From positions 739,004 to 803,003 of the forward strand of contig CP091735.1 of NCBI GenBank assembly GCA_022010015.1: a DNA stretch of 64,000 nt, read 5' to 3'. The first letter of the stretch is position 1, and each line of letters starts with the position of its first letter. The notes beneath the pieces were generated by a model that was not told where the DNA came from, ran no database searches, and saw only the letters and a list, made by a program, of their open reading frames with translations. This DNA is from Clostridium sp. GTDB lineage: Bacteria > Bacillota_I > Bacilli_A > Acholeplasmatales > Anaeroplasmataceae. The translations under genes were made by a program, and so were the position numbers. Positions 12,628 to 24,297 of the stretch are shown here, piece by piece.

Positions 12628-13019
12628 TATAATCAGCATAAATCAATAAAAAAATATTTCAAACCTGTTCAAAAATAACCTTAAAAAGTAGCTTATAAGT
12701 AACTGAAAATAAATAAAAAAAGTGATATTTATCGCTTAAAATTGTGATGATATAATATAATTAGAGATAATTAAACATAAAATAATGAAAATACTTAAAT
12801 TATGCTTAGAAAGAAAAAAAGTGACTTATAAAATGATTGGTTTGAAGCCTTTGATTTATTAAAAAAATATTAATTGAATCCAAAAAAATAATGAGCAAAG
12901 ATTAGTTGTTTATATTTTTTTAATATCACAGAAAAATTCAAATTAATTAACTTGTTTTTATATTTATATATTATGATATTAATATGTATTTTTTTACAAA
13001 AGGAAAAGGAAAGAAAAGA

Positions 13020-14727
13020 ATGAAAAAAATTAACAAATTTATTTTTTTAGGGTTAGGTCTTGTTGTAGGTCTTGCTGCTTGCGGTGGTACTGATTCCTCT
13101 ACATCACCTAATAGCAGTGCTAGTAGTAAGTCTAGTGCAATAGAAAGCAGTAAGGCTAGTGATAGTACTCCAAGTAGTAGTGTAAGTTCAAGTAGTGTTA
13201 GCTCATCAAGTAGCTCAAGTAGCAGTAGCTCTAGTGTGATGGAATTAAAGAAGTCAACCTTATATGCGGTTGGTGATTCAACGCTTGCAGCTTTTAATGA
13301 TGATTATTATTATCCTCGCTATGGCTATGCAACAATGCTTGGTAATTATTTTAAAACGGAGCTTACGATTAATAATTTAGCTTTATCTGGTCGTAGCTCA
13401 AAAAGCTTTACTAGTGAGGCTAATTATGAAACTTTAAAGACTAGCTTAAAGGCTGGAGATTATCTTCTTATTGGTTTTGGCCATAATGATGAAAAATCAG
13501 ATGATGCTGATAGATTTACTGATGCTTCACTTGATTATACTAATCCAAATTCCTTTGGCTATAGCTTAAATGAAAACTATATTAAGCTTGCTAAGGAAAA
13601 AGGTGCTACACCAATTTTATGTACACCTGTTGTTAGAGTTGATACTAATAATGATTATAGTGGCTCTAGTGGCCATATTACCTCAACTGGTGATTATGCT
13701 GATGCAATTGTTAAGCTAGGTAAGGAAACTAGCACAGAGGTAGTTAATTTAACAAAGATTACTAAAGAGCATTATCAAGAGCTTGGCTTTAATGAGGCTA
13801 TGCTATATCATGCAATGATTAGTGGTAAAATGGATCAAGGAAGCTTAACTTATGATTCATCAAGCCTTGATAAAACCCATTTAAATATTTATGGTGCAAA
13901 ATATGTTGCATATGAGGTTGCAAATACATTAAAGAGTAGTACCTGCTCTATTAAGGACTATGTTAAGGATGATATTGTAATGCCAACTAAGGCAGATTTA
14001 GTTAGTAATCCTAATTATGTTCTTCCTTCTTATCAGGCTCCTAATCTTAATGATTATGAAGCACCTGTTCAATTTAAGACTATAACTGAGGGCTGGTATG
14101 GTACTGCCTTTGGTGATTGTGGTGGAACTCCTAATGTTAGTAGTAATGGCTATTATGCAACAGAAACGGCAAGTGGTATTTTTAAGGTAGGAAATGAAAA
14201 ATCTAAAGGTAAGCTTACAAGTACAAATGATGGCTTTGCTTATGCATTTAGACAGGTAGAGAAGAATAAGAATTTTACAATTAGTGCTGATGTAGTAGTG
14301 TTACAAATGGCTGAAACTAAGCAGGCAGGCTTTGGTTTAATGCTAAGAGATGATGTTTATATTAATCAAGAGGGTAAGTCAATAACAAATACGGCTAATT
14401 ATTTAGCTGCTGGCTTTATTACCAATGATGGCTCTTGTAATGTATTATTTAAAAGAGAAAATAAGGCTTTAGCTAAGGAAGCTAATTTAATTAATGGCTA
14501 TTATGCTAAGGATGATACTGCAAAGCTTGAAATTGTTCGTCTTGGTCAATCAATTACAATTAAGGTTATTTATAAGGATAGTACTTATACTAAAAACGAC
14601 TCTTGATTTTGATTTATTTGCAACAGATTCTAATTATATGTATGTAGGTATGTTTGCAACTCGTGGTACAGTATGTGAGTTTAGTAATGTTTCATTTACT
14701 ATTACTGGTGAATCACAAGGTGCATAA
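13020..14727 (+). CDS. Secreted lipoprotein with SGNH/GDSL hydrolase domain (rhamnogalacturonan-acetylesterase-like) plus C-terminal beta-sandwich-like domain
   Basis: MKKINKFIFLGLGLVVGLAACGG is a signal peptide with lipobox. A poly-Ser linker follows. GDSxL-type block LYAVGDSTLA, then GRSSKSF, GFGHNDE and a late DKTH block. One frameshift near 14600 joins ORF 14494-14727. Confidence 0.8.
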
Positions 14728-14743
14728 TTTAAAAAGAATTAAT

Positions 14744-14775
14744 TTCCCTCTTTATAAATAGAGGGAGTTTTTCTT
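14744..14775 (+). terminator. Intrinsic terminator
   Basis: CCCTCT / AGAGGG stem with an 8-nt loop, followed by GTTTTTC. Confidence 0.7.
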
Positions 14776-14806
14776 TATAATAGGTAAAAAAAGGATGATT
14801 TATATT

Positions 14807-15386
14807 GATTAAAAGATGTGAGACTACAGATTTAGTGACTGTAGAAAAAAAATAACAAGATATTATTTTTGCTAAAGAGGTTAAAATGGATTTAGAGCTT
14901 GAGCAATTTATTTATCATTTTTTTTAGTACAGTATTATTTTTTTATAATAATGGTTTATCGATTGTTTTTAAAGGATGATGAGGTTAAGGCTTTTATTCT
15001 AGCTAATATGAAAAAAATGAAAAAAATGATTATTTAAATATATTTAAAAAGCTCTGTTAAGGCTTTAAATCCTAATAATATTAAGCTTGCTTATGAATAT
15101 TTAGATTATATTGAATATAATCATAAAAAGAGTATTAGCTTATATGGAGGATAATTCTATTTATTTAGGCTTAATTGCTAGTATGGTTCATCATGGTGGT
15201 ATTAATTTATTAGCTAGTCTTAAGGATCTTGCAAGAAAAAGAAATGTCCATAGCATATATCTATGGACAGATGAAACCTGTAATTATCATTATTATGAGG
15301 TTTTAGGATTTAAATTAATTGATAATTATGAAACAAAGCTTTATGATGTTTCACTAAAGACCTTCATTTATCAGATTGAACTCTGA
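14807..15386 (+). CDS. GNAT-type N-acetyltransferase (fragmented)
   Basis: The C-terminal ORF 15111-15386 has an acetyl-CoA-binding-like segment (HHGGINLLASLKDLARKRNVHSIYLWTDE..YYEVLGF). Upstream pieces are joined only tentatively. Confidence 0.5.
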
Positions 15387-15915
15387 TGAATAATGCTTTG
15401 AGGCTTCTTTGAATTCAATTCTTAGTCTTTTACTTAATCCAGCAGGAGATATAACATAAGCATCCTTACCAAATCTAAAGAAATATTGATAAATTTGCTC
15501 ATAGGCACATTTAAAATAATAAATATTTCCTTCCTTTTTATAAGGCTTTGGGCGATGAATATAAATATGCTTAAATTTTTTTATACCATTTGGTGTAAGC
15601 TTAATAATATATTCGCCAAATTTATCGGGATCACAAGCAAATTGTGGTCCCATATTTATTAGCTTATCAAGCTTTTTGTTTAGTTGTATCATTAAGCTCA
15701 AATTTATCCTTAGTGATTATTAAATTTGTAAGGGTAGGAAGTCTAAAGGAAAACATTCCACTATCATTATAGCAAATTAGATAATTAAATAATTCCTCTC
15801 CACTATAAACAAGCTTATAGGGCTTAAGGCTTGTTTTTTTGTTGCTTAAAGAAAATGAGATTATTCTTTTTTCAGCAATAGCCTTGTTTAATAATTCAAC
15901 CTTATCCTTAAACAT
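15354..15915 (-). CDS. WYL-domain protein with WCX-like C-terminus, no recognisable N-terminal HTH (one frameshift)
   Basis: RIISFSLSNKKTSLKPYKLVYSGEELFNYLICYNDSGMFSFRLPTLTNL fits the WYL pattern. FGKDAYVISPAGLSKRLRIEFKEASKHY fits the C-terminal extension seen in WYL regulators. Confidence 0.6.
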
Positions 15916-15917
15916 AT

Positions 15918-16366
15918 TTTTTCTCTAATGTATTGAGGTCTTTTTAGCATATGCTGAAAACAAAATGCGAAAATATTTAGATAAGCCTAAATCATTTAAA
16001 AAGATATTCAATACTATTTAAGGCATATTCACTTACCTTAGTTGGTTTTAAATGATAAGGCAGTGTCAAATATTTCATCCTTATTATTACGATTTAAAAA
16101 AATAATTGCTGATAATTCCTGAAACATCGTTTATTTTTAGTATTTGAAAGATTAGTTTCATTTTTTTAAAATTTCTTTTTATTTCACTATTTACCTTTTT
16201 GGTTTCTTCATCGTCAATATAGTTATAGTAATTAGCAATTAGGGTGTTGATAAAAAGATTTTTGATTAATTTCATCATCGGCTTTAAAGAATTTAAATAG
16301 TTCCATATCTTTTTTTAATATTTGAGCTACCTCACTACTTATATTTACCTTTATTTTTTTCCATGT
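15918..16366 (-). CDS. Hypothetical protein upstream of, and co-oriented with, the WYL gene (fragmented)
   Basis: AAGGAGT RBS plus ATG at 16366. Joined frames read ..SSEVAQILKKDMELFKFFKADDEINQKSFINTLIANYYNYIDDEE... No family recognised. Confidence 0.3.
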
Positions 16367-16496
16367 GTTTACTCCTTAAGTTCCTAAAAAGGGGGTATTA
16401 TTTAATAGTATTATATAATAAAAAAACATTGTAATATCAATAAAAAAGGTGGTCGAAATATATTTATAATTTGCAATCTTTTGTACCCCTTTATTT

Positions 16497-16505
16497 TGCT
16501 ATATA
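16497..16505 (+). promoter_or_regulatory. Extended -10 element (TGcTATATA) upstream of the large ncRNA
   Basis: TG at 16497-16498, hexamer TATATA at 16500-16505. The only -35-like boxes (TTGTAC 16481, TTGCAA 16471) have non-ideal spacing. Confidence 0.3.
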
Positions 16506-16528
16506 ATATAAGTGTCTTAAGGGACAAG

Positions 16529-17128
16529 CTAAATAGTTCTAATTATAGAATCCAAACCATGTGTATGAAGGTGGAATCTTGCATGGATGATAGACTCAAA
16601 ACAGAGCGGTCTAGTTAGATGGATACATTTAACATAGGTCAGTGGAGAGATTATGGTAACATAACCTCAAGAAGCCCTAAAGGGGTTATCTGTGTCTATT
16701 AGTGCATACTACATATCTTTATAAGTCATAGTTCTTATCGGAGTGGTAATTGACGCCTAAGTAGGAATAAACCTTGTAGCCTAGCCTGGTAAACTAGTAA
16801 CTATAAGGAAAGCTAATAACACTTTTTGATGTGATGTCTATAAAAAAGACTATAAGATAAGTTTATAGTGCCATAGGCCAAAGTCAGTAATATACTCGGC
16901 TGCTCTAATAGTGCGGTATTGTATGACATAAAATAAACAAAGTGATTTTGTCTGAACGCTTGGTTTTAGGTTGTGGGTATTAATCCCACCACGGCTTAGC
17001 ATGTCTAGGAAGTATATAGATAGCTACTATATGCTCAGACCTAGGCTCCGTGTGGACGAATAATAAATTTATGTAGGGTTGATAGTTGTAGGAAGAAATT
17101 TCTGGATTCTATAATTAGGACTATTTGG
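16529..17128 (+). ncRNA. ncRNA domain A (~600 nt)
   Basis: 16529-16554 pairs with 17103-17128: 26 contiguous pairs, 2 U-G wobbles, no mismatches. Internal hairpins at 16557-16586, 16651-16664 (GUAA loop), 16973-16989 and 17011-17036. Confidence 0.75.
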
Positions 17129-17140
17129 TTAAATAATAAA

Positions 17141-17663
17141 TATAGCTATAGCGTTATGTAACCTTGTGAAGAGGAATAGCAACCTGCAAGGATGTAGTTT
17201 TGCTTAAAAAAGAATGCGATAATATTTTTGGGAGATATTCTCTTATATTACGTTAGATGGTATGGTAACATAGCATTTAGGATCTAAAAGGAAACATTGA
17301 AAGCTATAGTGGTGAATATGTACGATGCTAAATCTTAAAACGCGCCGAAGCGACAATAGACGTTCCGGTGGGAAAGAACCTATGAGGGTTTGGCTTTGCA
17401 ACCATAAGCCTAGTAGGAATACCAAAATAAGCTTTTTGAGTTGAAGGTTAGTAATAACTGTATAAGACGCGTCTTTAGAGCGAGTAGCCATATCTCAAAA
17501 TAAAGAAATCCTGGTGAAAGTTGTAGGAATAAGGCCTATTATAGACTGCAATTGGGTAGACGGCAAACGCCTCGCTAGCTTTGTTTAATCTATCTACTAT
17601 ATGGATGAATAAGCAGATATATATATTCATTAAGAAGAAATTCTATATAACGTTATAGCTATG
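17141..17663 (+). ncRNA. ncRNA domain B (~520 nt), diverged paralog of domain A
   Basis: 17141-17160 pairs with 17644-17663: 20 pairs including 3 G-U wobbles. It shares at least 7 colinear sequence blocks with domain A. Hairpin 17162-17191 shows a compensatory change relative to domain A. Confidence 0.7.
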
Positions 17664-17690
17664 GTTATTGTTTTTTTGTATATTATTGTA

Positions 17691-17719
17691 AAGGACATAT
17701 TAAGGTATGTCCTTTTTTA
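17691..17719 (+). terminator. Intrinsic terminator of the ncRNA unit
   Basis: 8-bp stem AGGACATA (17692-17699) / TATGTCCT (17706-17713), 6-nt loop, then TTTTTT. Confidence 0.85.
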
Positions 17720-17959
17720 TTTGTTATAAATATTTAAATTGCTAATAAAAAAATAATACAATAGTTAATCAAGATTTGACTGATGGGAAAATAATTATAT
17801 TAAAGGCAAATGATATAGTTTCAGTATCATTTGATGATGTATTTTTGCTATAAAAGGTAATCGGTTATATCATATATAATATTCATAATACAACCACCAT
17901 ATAGACCATTGCTTATGATTAACAATAAAATTTTTAAAAAAATAATTGTTATTAATAAA

Positions 17960-21825: not shown

Positions 21826-21917
21826 ATTAAAAGTTAGTCTAAGGCTTACTTTTTGTATTTTTCAATTAAACAATAGTAATGTATAATATAGGTAGTTAGA
21901 TTTTTTTGAGGTGTATT

Positions 21918-24297
21918 ATGGAAGAAAAAGTATATTCTTTAAATGAACTACCTATTGGTTCATCAGCTACAATTATCACTGTTAATGGTAGTGGTGCATT
22001 AAGACAACATTTCTTAGATATGGGCTTAATTCCAGGAGCTGTTGTTACCTTGGAGAAGCTTGCTCCTATGGGTGATCCTATGGAGCTTAGAATTCATGGC
22101 TATGAGCTTACTCTAAGAGTAGATGACGCTAAAAATATTGGCATATCTAAGCCATTTATTTTAAAAGAAGAGCCTAAGGAAAATATTAAAATTGATAATC
22201 AAGACCACCCAGGACTTGGTGAAGGTGGAAGGTATCATCTAAAGGAAAATGAAAATCCTTTGGCTAAGGATAAGGTTTTAAAGTTTGCATTAGTTGGTAA
22301 TCAAAATTGTGGTAAGACTACTTTGTTTAATTGTTTAACTGGTGAGAATCAGCATGTTGGTAATTTCCCAGGTGTTACTGTTGATAAAAAGGATGGTAGA
22401 ATAAAGAATTATGAAAATACCATTGTTACGGATTTGCCTGGTATTTATTCCTTGTCTCCATATAGCGATGAAGAAATTGTTTCAAGAAAATTTATTTTAG
22501 AGTCTAAGCCTAAGGCTATTATTAATATTGTTGATGCGACAAATATTGAGAGAAATCTTTATTTGACTCTTCAATTAATGGAGCTTGATATACCAATGAC
22601 TTTAGCTTTGAATATGATGGATGAGCTAACAGGCAATGGTGGTTATATTGATGTTAATAGAATGGAGGAAATGCTTGGTATACCAGTAGTACCAATTAGT
22701 GCTAAAAAGAATGAGGGTGTATCAGAGCTTGTTAGTCATAGTGTTCACGTTGCCTATTATCAGGAGAAGCCTATGGTTAATGATTTTTGTGATGAATTTG
22801 ATCATAATGGTGCTGTCCATCGTGCTATTCATGGTATAATGTATTTAATTGAGGATCATGCTAAGGCCGCAGGTATTCCTTTAAGATTTGCTTCGACTAA
22901 GGTTATTGAAGGGGATAAGATTGTTATTGAGGCTTTAAAGCTAAGCCAAAATGAACAAGAAATGATTGAGCATATTGTTGTTCAAATGGAGGATGAGCGT
23001 GGTCTTGATCGTAGTGCTGCTATTGCTGATATGAGATATCACTATATTGAAAAGGTATGTGATTTATGCGTTATAAAGCCTCATGAGTCAAAGGAGCATG
23101 TAAGAAGTAAGAAAATTGATAAAATATTAACTGGTAAATATACTGCTATCCCAATGTTTATATTAATATTAGGCCTTGTTTTCTTTTTGACATTCAATGT
23201 AATTGGTAAATGCCTACAGGATTTATTAAGCCTTGGTGTTGATAGCTTAACTAAGGTGATTGCAAGCTCATTTATTAAATGGAATGTTGAACCAGTAATT
23301 AATTCGTTAGTTGTTGATGGTATTTTAACAGGAATTGGTAGTGTTATATCATTTATGCCTATTATTATTGTTTTATTCTTTTTTTCTTATCTATTTTTAG
23401 AGGATTCTGGGTATATGGCTCGTGTTGCCTTTGTAATGGACAAGCTTTTAAGAAAGATTGGTTTATCTGGTAAATCAATTGTTCCACTTTTAATGGGCTT
23501 TGGTTGTACTGTTCCTGGTGTTATGTCAACAAGAACCTTATCGTCTGATCGTGATCGAAAAATGACAATTATGCTAACTCCATTTATGAGCTGCTCTGCT
23601 AAGCTTCCTATTTATAGCTTTTTAGCTTCCTTGTTTTTTAAGCAATATGCTTGGCTAGTGATGATTTCATTATATGTTATTGGTATTTTGATTGGTATTT
23701 TAGTAGCCTTTTATTGCCAAAAAAATTCTTCTCTCCGGGGGGAGCTGTTCCTTTTTGTAAGGGAGCTTCCTAATTATCGTAGGCCAACTATGAAGAATGT
23801 TTTTTTGAGTTATTAAAGGATAAAGTTATTGATTTCTTAAAAAGAGCCTTTTGGTATTATTTTTAATTGCTACTATTGCTATTTGGTTTTTTTACAATCA
23901 TTTAATTTTTAGATTTGAGCTTGTTAGTGATTCTAAGGATAGTATGCTTGCGGTTATTGCTGGTGGAATTGCCCCTATATTTAAGCCTCTTGGCTTTGGC
24001 GATTATCGTATTGTCACAGGTTTAATTTCTGGTGTTCTTGCTAAAGAAGGTGTTGTTTCAACATTAATGGTTTTATTTGGTAGTAAGGATGCAATACTTG
24101 CCTTTATTAATCCTTATGGTGCCTTCTGCTTATTAATATTTTGTTTATTATATACACCATGTGTTGCTGCTCTTGCCTCAATTAAACGTGAGCTTGGTCG
24201 CAAATATATGTTCTTTACAGTCTTTTTCCAATTAGGAATTGCTTATATATTTGCAGGAATCTTTAGCTTGATTTTTCATATAATAGGAGTAATGTAG
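21918..24297 (+). CDS. feoB: Ferrous iron transporter FeoA-FeoB fusion (frameshifted near 23700-23850)
   Basis: FeoA-like N-terminus (LPIGSSATIITVNG...ELRIHGYELTLR), G-domain (LVGNQNCGKTTLFN, DLPGIYSL, NMMDE) and polytopic C-terminus continuing in ORF 23851-24297. Confidence 0.9.

What the first reader, a model, noticed from the sequence alone, without database searches (positions are those of the whole stretch)
16529..17663. The two RNA domains are diverged paralogs with colinear conserved blocks and a compensatory base-pair change
Blocks shared in the same order:
- AACC(A/T)TGTG..GAAG.GGAAT..GCA(T/A)GGATG (16555-16589 vs 17160-17194)
- GTTAGATGG (16614-16622 vs 17252-17260)
- TATGGTAACATA (16652-16663 vs 17261-17272)
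- CCTA(A)GTAGGAATA (16756-16769 vs 17409-17421)
- CTACTATATG (17024-17033 vs 17594-17603)
- GTTGTAGGAA (17085-17094 vs 17520-17529)
- GAAGAAATT(T)CT immediately 5' of each closing strand (17092-17103 vs 17634-17644)

In the first hairpin, domain A has CCATG/CATGG (16557-61 / 16582-86). Domain B has CCTTG/CAAGG (17162-66 / 17187-91). That is an A-U to U-A double substitution that preserves pairing. Between the blocks the sequences are largely unalignable by eye. This is the pattern expected for a duplicated structured RNA kept under structural selection. A tandem dimeric arrangement within one transcript is unusual for large bacterial ncRNAs as far as I know.
Basis: seen in the sequence. Interest (0 to 1): 0.7.

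Follow-up and report, generated by a model that had tools for sequence, protein, structure and literature searches.

The report
Tandem ROOL RNAs with swapped contacts
The two "RNA domains" are two very different copies of the known cage-forming ROOL RNA placed head to tail in a Mollicutes chromosome, and their subunit-contact loops fit each other rather than themselves, which suggests a mixed two-component RNA cage that has not been described.

Summary
Both domains are full-length members of Rfam family ROOL (RF03087): A at 16533-17121 (218 bits) and B at 17138-17663 (194 bits), against a threshold of 99. Only blocks 1, 3 and 7 sit at homologous ROOL positions; blocks 2, 4, 5 and 6 do not, and block 6 is also out of order. 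The compensatory pair is real and is one of 46.

A and B are 50% identical, no closer than random ROOL pairs (median 51%). An independent Mollicutes MAG, about 93% identical, carries the same pair. Both copies are better conserved there than the flanks.

All 119 other ROOL loci I collected are single-copy, and I found no report of tandem ROOLs.

ROOL is known to form homo-oligomeric cages held by kissing loops. In about 45 single-copy ROOLs those loops match their own receptors. In A and B they match each other's receptors instead. Cross Watson-Crick runs are 3, 3, 5, 4 and self runs are 2, 2, 2, 4. None of 895 random pairs of single ROOLs shows this pattern.

ROOL identity is certain. A co-transcribed pair forming an alternating A/B cage is my best inference (about 0.5) and is untested.

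The parts
16481..16507 (+). Candidate promoter: -35-like TTGTAC (16481-16486), TG at 16497-16498, -10 TATATA/TATAAT (16500-16507). Predicted start about 15-20 nt before ROOL A.
   Evidence: Read from the sequence; this is inference only. 16472-16548 has no difference between the window and L121, while 16405-16471 has several. The consensus scan did not list it because the -35 is weak.
16533..17121 (+). ROOL RNA copy A, full length (model 1-574).
   Evidence: Rfam RF03087, 217.7 bits, E 6.6e-48, gathering score 99.1. 114 of 135 comparable model pairs are canonical.
16539..16554 (+). P1 5' strand of A. It pairs with 17103-17118 (16 perfect bp).
   Evidence: -19.7 kcal/mol. The cross pairing with B's P1 3' strand is only -1.2.
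16571..16577 (+). L2 loop of A (GUGGAAU). It is the donor of inter-subunit bridge B1. GGA at 16573-16575 complements UCC of B at 17509-17511.
   Evidence: Position mapped from env-120 bridge B1, A38-C41. Calibration on single ROOLs.
16785..16793 (+). Apical loop of A's long hairpin (CCUGGUAAA). It is the donor of bridge B4. UGGUA at 16787-16791 gives 5 Watson-Crick pairs with B's junction UACCA.
   Evidence: The pairing is identical to the self pairs of single ROOLs L031 and L097 (GUGGUA with AAUACCAA).
16809..16816 (+). Junction of A (AAAGCUAA), the receptor of bridge B4. With A's own loop it forms only 2 WC + 2 G.U pairs. With B's loop it pairs as UU.GC/GC.AA in the standard register, or CUUU/AAAG (4 WC) in a shifted register.
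16883..16950 (+). Variable linker of A. It corresponds to the disordered linker that lies inside the cage in env-120.
   Evidence: Model positions about 346-394 plus inserts. 16 of the 27 window-versus-L121 differences in A fall here.
16957..16961 (+). B1 receptor of A (CGCUU, just after UCUGAA). GCU at 16958-16960 complements AGC of B's L2 loop.
   Evidence: The register matches env-120 G465-U468.
17122..17137 (+). 16-nt spacer (TATTTGGTTAAATAAT) between the two ROOLs. No terminator-like or promoter-like site was found here on the + strand.
17138..17663 (+). ROOL RNA copy B, full length (model 1-574). It is short (526 nt) with a roughly 21-nt linker.
   Evidence: Rfam RF03087, 194.4 bits, E 3.1e-42. 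112 of 135 comparable pairs are canonical. Only 6 differences from L121.
17144..17159 (+). P1 5' strand of B. It pairs with 17645-17660 (16 bp, 2 of them G.U).
   Evidence: -19.6 kcal/mol. The cross pairing with A's P1 3' strand is -4.3.
17175..17182 (+). L2 loop of B (AAUAGCAA), the B1 donor. AGC is at 17178-17180.
17394..17401 (+). Apical loop of B's long hairpin (CUUUGCAA), the B4 donor. It is one nucleotide from the CUUAGCAA loops of L029 and L105, which pair with AAUGCUAA junctions.
17418..17427 (+). Junction of B (AAUACCAAAA), the B4 receptor. UACCA is at 17420-17424.
17508..17511 (+). B1 receptor of B (AUCC, immediately 5' of CCUGGU/GGUGAAAG). B lacks the conserved UCUGAAUG motif.
   Evidence: Register taken from the cmscan alignment (model 402-405) and from comparison with L072-type ROOLs.
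17690..17725 (+). Intrinsic-terminator-like hairpin (11 bp) followed by a T-run, 27 nt after B.

Best explanation
The region is one transcription unit that encodes two complete, highly diverged ROOL RNAs head to tail, in the chromosome of an uncultured Mollicutes bacterium.

Shown:
- Both copies are ROOL family members.
- Each closes on itself with its own 16-bp P1 helix, and the two P1s are orthogonal to each other.
- The pair is conserved in a second genome.

Inferred:
- A promoter lies before A and a terminator after B, with nothing between them. The two RNAs would then be made in equal amounts, either as one chain or cut apart afterwards.
- ROOL RNAs are known to assemble into closed cages through loop-receptor contacts between neighbouring subunits.
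- In this pair the two sequence-specific in-plane contacts are re-wired. These are B1 (L2 loop with the 3' end of the linker) and B4 (hairpin loop with junction). A's loops fit B's receptors and B's loops fit A's receptors, while neither fits its own.
- I therefore propose that A and B alternate around each four-membered ring, giving a mixed A4B4 cage instead of a homo-octamer.
For: Identity:
- Two full-length RF03087 hits at 218 and 194 bits, against a gathering score of 99.
- 46 compensatory, 44 identical and 10 one-sided pairs among 135 comparable model pairs.

Reality and selection:
- MAG contig CALCWU010000030.1 (L121) is about 93% identical and has the same two full ROOLs.
- B differs at 6 of 526 nt.
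- A differs at 27 positions, 16 of them in the linker.
- Most changes at paired positions keep or improve pairing.

One transcription unit:
- A terminator-like hairpin follows B only.
- The spacer is 16 nt.
- P1 helices are -19.7 and -19.6 kcal/mol, against -1.2 and -4.3 for the cross pairings.

Known mechanism:
- ROOL env-120 is a D4 homo-octamer.
- Bridges B1 (A38-C41 with G465-U468) and B4 (G307-A310 with U332-C335) link chain i to chain i+1 (PMC12286853).
- In Efa ROOL the equivalent contacts are 3 bp each (PMC12990946).

Calibration on single-copy ROOLs:
- In 48 unique single ROOLs the B4 loop pairs with its own junction in one fixed register; the tabulated 45 have 4-6 WC pairs in 40, and most shortfalls are loop-extraction errors.
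- In 45 single ROOLs the B1 self run is usually 3-5.

The pair:
- Cross runs are 3 (GGA/UCC), 3 (AGC/GCU), 5 (UGGUA/UACCA) and 4.
- Self runs are 2, 2, 2 and 4, the last out of register.
- Cross minus self is +5. For 895 random pairs of single ROOLs the mean is -4.3 and the maximum +2.
- No single ROOL has both self runs <=2.
- Shuffled receptor windows reach +5 in 2.4% of trials.

Control: the nearest single-copy relatives of B (L127, L134, L157-L159) keep self-complementary bridges, UGAG/CUCA and AACA/UGUU.
Against: - Only one lineage carries the pair (two genomes about 7% apart), and the bridge sites do not vary between them. There is therefore no independent covariation for the cross pairings.
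- The two B1 matches are only 3 bp each.
- The B-loop to A-junction contact is imperfect. It has a U.U mismatch in the standard register, or 4 WC pairs in a shifted register.
- A's own B4 pairing (UGGU/GCUA, with 2 G.U) might still work.
- Every solved ROOL is a homo-oligomer.
- Expression, transcript ends and assembly are untested.
- I could not check on the 3D model whether about 25 nt of single strand can link the P1 ends of neighbouring subunits.
- Loop and receptor windows were taken from MAFFT or HMM alignments and RNAfold, not from a curated structural alignment.
Confidence: 0.5

Rival explanations
1. Two independent ROOL genes that each form their own homo-oligomeric cage. The tandem layout only reflects an old duplication or two insertions at one site, perhaps serving two conditions or partners.
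For: All solved ROOLs are homo-oligomers. A can still form a 4-bp B4 contact with itself using two G.U pairs, and B has a shifted 4-bp option, UUUG/CAAA. The 3-bp B1 matches are weak evidence on their own, since foreign partners do as well in about 9% of cases each. The orthogonal P1 helices show that the two domains fold separately.
Against: The summed self runs of A and B equal 10, lower than in any of 895 pairs of single ROOLs, whose mean is 15.3. A has runs <=2 at both bridges, which no single ROOL shows. In-register self pairing at B1 is zero for both copies. Cross pairing is as good as the typical self pairing of single ROOLs.
Confidence: 0.2
2. The A-B transcript works as a covalent pseudo-dimer in which the two domains dock on each other within one chain, as in tandem glycine riboswitch aptamers. 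It does not build a closed cage, or it builds one of different stoichiometry.
For: The spacer is 16 nt with no terminator. The A-to-B contacts (5 bp and 3 bp) are stronger than the B-to-A contacts, as expected if one direction acts within the chain. Lsa ROOL shows that stoichiometry can vary within the family, forming a hexamer.
Against: B's loops still match A's receptors, so the ring can close. Both copies keep the elements of the inter-plane contacts, including the L18 GC core: AGCU in A at 17022-17025 and CGCU in B at 17573-17576 (coordinates; read from the sequence).
Confidence: 0.15
3. One copy, most likely B, is a decaying or non-functional duplicate.
For: B is short (526 nt). It lacks the conserved UCUGAAUG, GCUCAGAC and GGAUAC motifs and has almost no linker. 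Its B4 loop fits no junction perfectly in the standard register.
Against: B is the best-conserved segment between the two genomes: 6 of 526 differences in a locus that is about 93% identical, and 4 of the 5 changes at paired positions keep or improve pairing. It scores 194 bits over the full model, with 112 of 135 pairs canonical.
Confidence: 0.1
4. The similarity is a chance product of AT-rich sequence, or the tandem is an assembly artefact.
For: The window appears to carry frameshifts.
Against: Rfam E-values are 7e-48 and 3e-42. The copies are 50% identical, so they cannot be a collapsed or duplicated repeat. An independent assembly has the same arrangement.
Confidence: 0.01

Closest known systems
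ROOL RNA (Rfam RF03087; Weinberg et al. 2017, PMC5737381; Cousin et al. 2017, PMC5643018; cryo-EM in Kretsch et al. 2025, PMC12286853, and the Efa and Lsa structures summarised in PMC12990946)
   Same: Both copies match the whole covariance model well above threshold. Each has the P1 closure, the P2/L2 hairpin, the P6 hairpin, the long hairpin with its junction, the GNRA-type hairpin region, the linker, the T-loop-like GUAAUCAAUCC region and the L18 hairpin with a GC core.
   Different: There are two heterotypic copies 16 nt apart in one apparent transcription unit. The context is chromosomal, with no tRNAs in 64 kb and no phage genes nearby, whereas ROOLs are usually near tRNAs in phages. The loop-receptor complementarity that is present within each single-copy ROOL holds here between the two copies instead. 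B has a very short linker and lacks several conserved motifs.
   Same: A closed ring built from RNA subunits through intermolecular loop-loop base pairs. Swapped loop specificities would force two RNA species to alternate.
   Different: pRNA is about 120-170 nt, needs the phage connector, and the two-species versions were man-made. Here the swap would be natural, in a 0.5-0.6 kb RNA that forms protein-free cages.
Tandem glycine riboswitch aptamers (cited in PMC5737381 references; my own knowledge)
   Same: Two homologous structured RNA domains in one transcript that contact each other.
   Different: Those are about 100-nt ligand-binding domains that control a downstream gene. There is no evidence of ligand binding or cis-regulation here, and the downstream gene is on the opposite strand.
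GOLLD RNA (cage-forming, phage and tRNA associated)
   Same: A large ornate RNA that forms a closed homo-oligomeric cage through kissing loops and A-minor contacts.
   Different: No GOLLD hit in the window, and the fold and stoichiometry are different.

Membership tests
ROOL RNA (RF03087) | Covariance-model score at or above the curated gathering score (99.1 bits), over the full model. | tested here: met
   A: 217.7 bits, model 1-574. B: 194.4 bits, model 1-574. The L121 copies score 218.2 and 209.6 bits.
ROOL RNA (RF03087) | Consensus secondary structure retained (159 model pairs). | tested here: met
   Of 135 pairs with residues in both copies, 114 are canonical in A and 112 in B, and 46 differ on both sides between A and B. 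Caveat: the alignment was fitted to the model.
ROOL RNA (RF03087) | Highly conserved sequence motifs (ACAAUAGACG, GGAUAC, GUAUAA, AGUAGCC, UCUGAAUG, GCUCAGAC, GAAUA). | tested here: inconclusive
   Each copy has only a subset. A has GGAUAC, UCUGAA, GCUCAGAC and GAAUA, but AAUUGACG and AUAGGCC variants. B has ACAAUAGACG, GUAUAA, AGUAGCC and GAAUA, but lacks GGAUAC, UCUGAAUG and GCUCAGAC.
ROOL RNA (RF03087) | Covarying complementarity between the long-hairpin loop and the following junction of the same RNA. This was the Rfam pseudoknot and is bridge B4 in the cryo-EM structure. | tested here: not met
   In 48 unique single ROOLs the loop pairs with its own junction in a fixed register; 40 of the 45 tabulated have 4-6 WC pairs. 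A has 2 WC + 2 G.U with itself. B has no in-register pairing. A's loop gives 5 WC pairs with B's junction. The feature is met between the copies, not within them.
ROOL RNA (RF03087) | Complementarity between the L2 loop and the 3' end of the linker of the same RNA (bridge B1). | tested here: not met
   Single ROOLs mostly have 3-5 WC pairs. A and B self runs are 2 and 2, with none in register. Cross runs are 3 and 3, in register.
ROOL RNA (RF03087) | Assembly into a closed RNA-only oligomer (hexamer or octamer). | not testable with these tools
   This needs in vitro transcription with mass photometry or cryo-EM. No RNA 3D modelling tool was available.
ROOL RNA (RF03087) | Typical context: phage or prophage, near tRNA genes (frequent, but not defining). 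| tested here: not met
   No tRNA in 64 kb. The neighbours are a weak WYL/WCX-like protein, a TetR-family C-terminal domain fragment, DegV, FeoAB, a GDSL lipase and an M42 peptidase. By contrast, the flank of viral ROOL L016 matches phage tRNA genes.
GOLLD RNA / OLE RNA / other Rfam families | Covariance-model match. | tested here: not met
   The only Rfam hits in the window at gathering threshold are the two ROOLs.

The most novel reading that the evidence does not exclude
A natural hetero-oligomeric RNA-only nanocage. Two diverged ROOL RNAs, made from one operon-like unit, have exchanged kissing-loop specificities so that they must alternate (A-B-A-B) in each ring, giving an A4B4 cage or four covalent A-B chains. 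This would be the first natural RNA hetero-oligomer with more than two protomers, and a natural counterpart of the engineered two-species pRNA rings.
Probability: 0.45. Interest if true: 0.85.

Novelty: new variant of a known kind. Interest (0 to 1): 0.66.

Why it matters
ROOL cages were solved only in 2025 and their function is unknown. Every natural RNA assembly with more than two subunits described so far is a homo-oligomer (PMC12990946).

A natural pair whose contacts are cross-wired would matter in several ways:
- It would show that RNA cages can evolve subunit specialisation the way protein cages do, as with ferritin H and L chains.
- It would give a ready-made orthogonal pair of interfaces for RNA nanotechnology.
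- It would offer a clean genetic handle. One subunit has a long internal linker and the other almost none, which could help work out what the cage interior does.
- It places ROOL in a non-phage, tRNA-free chromosomal setting in a small-genome bacterium, which bears on whether ROOL serves the cell or the phage.

Even if the mixed-cage idea fails, the pair is a compact natural experiment. Two sequences only 50% identical hold one 574-position fold with 46 compensatory pairs.

Tried and rejected
- **Alternative genetic code.** Reading TGA as sense (code 4) or TAG as sense did not restore long ORFs. Comparison with L121 shows frameshifts instead.
- **blastn of the ROOL pair.** Searches against the phage and plasmid collections gave no match.
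- **The look-up of encoding contigs.** The window's helicase is not on record.
- **blastn of a viral ROOL locus (L016) against phages, to count copies per record.** It hit only the flanking tRNA genes, so it was useless for that purpose.
- **RNAduplex with wide windows that include stem nucleotides.** It separated self from cross poorly in single ROOLs. I replaced it with loop-only windows and Watson-Crick run length.
- **RNAfold for the short L2 hairpin.** It was unreliable, so I used a fixed trimming rule for all sequences.
- **Patterns demanding two canonical ROOL cores at tandem distance in viral contigs.** They returned 19 loci, none a ROOL.
- **env-120 sequence from the supplementary PDF.** The text lost about 9-10 nt (650 nt recovered). 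I used it only for the local context of bridge residues, not for numbering.
- **Literature searches.** Searches for tandem or heteromeric ROOL, and for ROOL in Mollicutes, found nothing.
- **Considered and rejected.** Chance similarity and assembly artefact; see the rival explanations.
Full report
**What is there.** An Rfam scan of the whole 64-kb window gives exactly two hits. Both are ROOL RNA (RF03087), on the + strand, and both span the whole 574-position model. Copy A is at 16533-17121 (217.7 bits, E 6.6e-48) and copy B is at 17138-17663 (194.4 bits, E 3.1e-42). The family's gathering score is 99.1.

ROOL was described in 2017 (PMC5737381, PMC5643018). In 2025 it was shown by cryo-EM to assemble, without protein, into closed homo-oligomeric cages (PMC12286853; review PMC12990946).

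**Checking the observation.** All seven blocks and the two hairpin strands are at the stated coordinates. I transcribed the two cmscan alignments and mapped every window position to a model position. The parse reproduces 574 positions and the correct end coordinates.

| Block | Model positions in A | Model positions in B | Homologous? |
|---|---|---|---|
| 1 | 23-60 | 23-60 | yes |
| 2 | 81-89 | 108-115 | no |
| 3 | 116-127 | 116-127 | yes |
| 4 | 220-235 (P6 hairpin) | 268-282 (3' strand of long hairpin + junction) | no |
| 5 | 483-492 | 504-513 | no |
| 6 | 540-546 | 418-427 | no, and out of order |
| 7 | 544-556 | 544-554 | yes |

Exact shared blocks are nevertheless more frequent than in dinucleotide shuffles: 8 of >=9 nt against 2.2 expected, and 5 of >=10 nt against 0.66. 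Part of the excess is a motif, GUAGGAA(UA), that recurs twice in each copy.

The compensatory pair is real (model pair 27:55). It is one of 46 double changes. Of 159 model pairs:
- 44 are identical in A and B.
- 10 differ on one side.
- 46 differ on both sides while staying canonical.
- 14 are canonical in A only.
- 12 are canonical in B only.
- 9 are canonical in neither.
- 24 have a gap.

The alignment was fitted to the model, which favours pairing. Two sequences do not reach about 200 bits without the structure.

**How related are A and B?** They are identical at 236 of 471 aligned model positions, or 50%. On an HMM alignment of 93 distinct ROOLs, A and B are 50% identical, and the median for random pairs is 51%. 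A's nearest non-self relative is at 53% and so is B's. They are therefore as far apart as any two family members. An ancient local duplication and two separate acquisitions cannot be distinguished.

**Is the tandem real, and is it kept?**
- A pattern that both copies satisfy found one locus among 185,579 species-representative genomes. It is contig CALCWU010000030.1 of an "uncultured Mollicutes bacterium" MAG, with two matches.
- That contig is about 93% identical to window 12900-17688 and carries the same two full-length ROOLs.
- Within the ROOLs the two genomes differ at 6 of 526 positions in B. They differ at 27 positions in A, 16 of them in the variable linker.
- The stretch 16472-16548, which holds the putative promoter and the start of A, is invariant.
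- Four of B's five changes at paired positions keep or improve pairing.
- Both copies are thus better conserved than their surroundings. That argues against a decaying copy and against an assembly artefact.

**How unusual is a tandem?**
- A ROOL core pattern retrieved 120 viral stretches. A profile HMM built from them finds a ROOL in 113, and none has a second copy. At least 700 nt of flank is available on both sides in 72 of these, upstream in 92 and downstream in 90.
- The lineage-specific pattern gave two single-copy ROOLs in metagenomes and four in large phage contigs.
- Patterns demanding two canonical cores at tandem distance gave only chance hits.
- I found no paper that mentions tandem or heteromeric ROOLs.
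- The survey is a sample, not an exhaustive cmsearch. Cellular genomes were probed with the lineage-specific pattern only.

**Anatomy of the unit.**
- Each copy closes with its own 16-bp P1 helix: A 16539-16554 with 17103-17118 (-19.7 kcal/mol), and B 17144-17159 with 17645-17660 (-19.6 kcal/mol).
- The cross combinations are weak (-1.2 and -4.3), so the two domains should fold independently even in one chain.
- A terminator-like hairpin with a T-run follows B at 17690-17725. None lies between the copies.
- A weak -35 with a TG-extended -10 at about 16481-16507 is a candidate promoter. This is read from the sequence and is inference.
- Co-transcription is therefore likely but unproven.

**Context.** The neighbours are cellular genes:
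- A divergently oriented 331-aa protein with weak WYL/WCX similarity, intact in L121 and fragmented in the window.
- A TetR-family C-terminal domain fragment.
- DegV and FeoAB.
- A GDSL lipase and an M42 peptidase.

There is no tRNA in 64 kb. By contrast, the flank of a typical viral ROOL matches phage tRNA genes.

**Mechanism.** In env-120 ROOL, each half of the cage is a ring of four chains. Chain i contacts chain i+1 through two sequence-specific base-paired bridges:
- B1: L2 loop A38-C41 with G465-U468 at the 3' end of the linker.
- B4: hairpin loop G307-A310 with junction U332-C335. This is the covarying "pseudoknot" of the Rfam model.

In Efa ROOL the equivalent contacts are 3 bp each.

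I located these four elements in A, in B and in about 45 unique single-copy ROOLs.
- In the single ROOLs the B4 loop core (5'-U-N-N-N...) pairs with its own junction in one fixed register. Forty of the 45 tabulated have 4-6 Watson-Crick pairs, and most of the rest are loop-extraction errors. Examples are UGGA/UCCA, UGGC/GCCA, UAGCA/UGCUA, UGACA/UGUCA and UGGUAA/UUACCA.
- The B1 loop usually forms 3-5 pairs with the 7 nt after CUGAA. Examples are GUCA/UGAC, CGUCA/UGACG, AUCA/UGAU and AAUC/GAUU.

A and B behave differently:

| Bridge | Pairing | Result |
|---|---|---|
| B4 | A loop UGGUA with B junction UACCA | 5 WC, identical to the L031 and L097 self pairs |
| B4 | A loop with A's own junction GCUA | 2 WC + 2 G.U |
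| B4 | B loop CUUUGCAA with A junction AAAGCUAA | UU.GC/GC.AA with one U.U in the standard register, or CUUU/AAAG (4 WC) shifted |
| B4 | B loop with B's own junction | only out of register (UUUG/CAAA) |
| B1 | A L2 GGA with B's UCC | 3 WC, in register |
| B1 | B L2 AGC with A's GCU | 3 WC, in register |
| B1 | either L2 with its own receptor | no in-register pair |

B's loop is one nucleotide from the CUUAGCAA loops that pair with AAUGCUAA junctions.

In summary, cross runs are 3, 3, 5, 4 and self runs are 2, 2, 2, 4. Cross minus self is +5.
- For 895 random pairs of distinct single ROOLs this statistic has mean -4.3, SD 2.8 and maximum +2.
- Their self sums are never as low as 10.
- No single ROOL has both self runs <=2, as A does.
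- Shuffling the four receptor windows gives +5 or more in 2.4% of trials, and a cross sum >=15 in 1%.
- The closest single-copy relatives of B keep normal self-complementarity: UGAG/CUCA and AACA/UGUU.

Both bridges run in the same direction (chain i donor, chain i+1 receptor). A ring of four can therefore close as A-B-A-B.

**Interpretation and its limits.** The simplest reading is that the two RNAs are subunits of one mixed cage. They would be made in equal amounts from one unit and would alternate in each ring.

What is shown:
- ROOL identity of both copies.
- Conservation of the pair in a second genome.
- Orthogonal P1 closures.
- The swapped complementarity, and how unusual it is relative to single-copy ROOLs.

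What is inferred:
- Co-transcription.
- That these loops make the same contacts as in env-120.
- That the assembly is a closed A4B4 cage.

Weak points:
- There is a single lineage, with no variation at the bridge sites.
- The B1 contacts are only 3 bp.
- The B-to-A B4 contact is imperfect.
- There is no 3D check of whether the spacer can connect neighbouring subunits.

I put ROOL identity at about 0.98, a single transcription unit at about 0.7, and hetero-assembly at about 0.45-0.5.

**Novelty.** The RNA family is known, so the finding as written is a new pair of members of a known family. The tandem heterotypic arrangement with cross-wired contacts is, as far as the searchable literature and my survey go, undescribed. 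I class it as a new variant of a known kind.

Noticed in passing
window 1-64000 (for example 15354-16278 and 21906-24297) compared with L121 1323-2318: ORF density is low under table 11 and under code 4, and nearly all ORFs are on the + strand. Conserved genes are split by frameshifts: FeoAB continues in another frame at 23851, and the 331-aa WYL/WCX-like gene that is intact in L121 is in three pieces in the window. Either the window comes from an indel-rich assembly or the genome carries many pseudogenes.
   Followed up: partly
L121 4770-6169, against window about 12841-12900: The related MAG has a 1.4-kb insertion encoding a 490-aa ATPase (ATPase_2/AAA_14/DUF4143) between the GDSL lipase and the M42 peptidase. 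It is absent from the window.
   Followed up: partly
window about 15354-16370 (- strand); L121 1323-2318: The gene divergently transcribed from the ROOL pair has weak, sub-threshold WYL and WCX domain matches (E 0.004-0.009). WYL proteins are nucleic-acid-sensing regulators, so a link to ROOL expression is conceivable but untested.
   Followed up: no
window 16761-16769, 17087-17093, 17413-17421, 17523-17531: The motif GUAGGAA(UA) occurs twice in each ROOL copy at non-homologous positions. Its significance is unknown; it may simply echo the uaGGaAAU and GUAGGG consensus elements of ROOL.
   Followed up: partly
window 16837-16850 against 17447-17458: The hairpin that carries a GNRA-type loop in most ROOLs (GAAA or GUAA, the donor of the inter-subunit A-minor bridge B2) has an A-rich 7-nt loop in A (GUCU-AUAAAAA-AGAC). 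B has GUAA. This is another asymmetry between the two copies.
   Followed up: no
window 17483-17515: B's linker is only about 21 nt and lacks the conserved UCUGAAUG motif. A's is about 70 nt and is the fastest-evolving part of the locus. A mixed cage would contain half the usual number of internal linkers.
   Followed up: partly
L127, L134, L157-L159 (metagenome and viral contigs of 87-155 kb): The closest relatives of copy B (53% identity) form a tight group (95-98% identical to each other). The viral members sit on contigs of 105-155 kb. They share the UAUGGUAACAUA hairpin with A and B, so the Mollicutes copies may ultimately derive from phage ROOLs.
   Followed up: partly
L016 about 467-553: The flank of a typical viral ROOL matches tRNA-Thr and tRNA-Gly genes of many phages. 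This confirms the usual association of ROOL with tRNAs, which is missing in the window.
   Followed up: no
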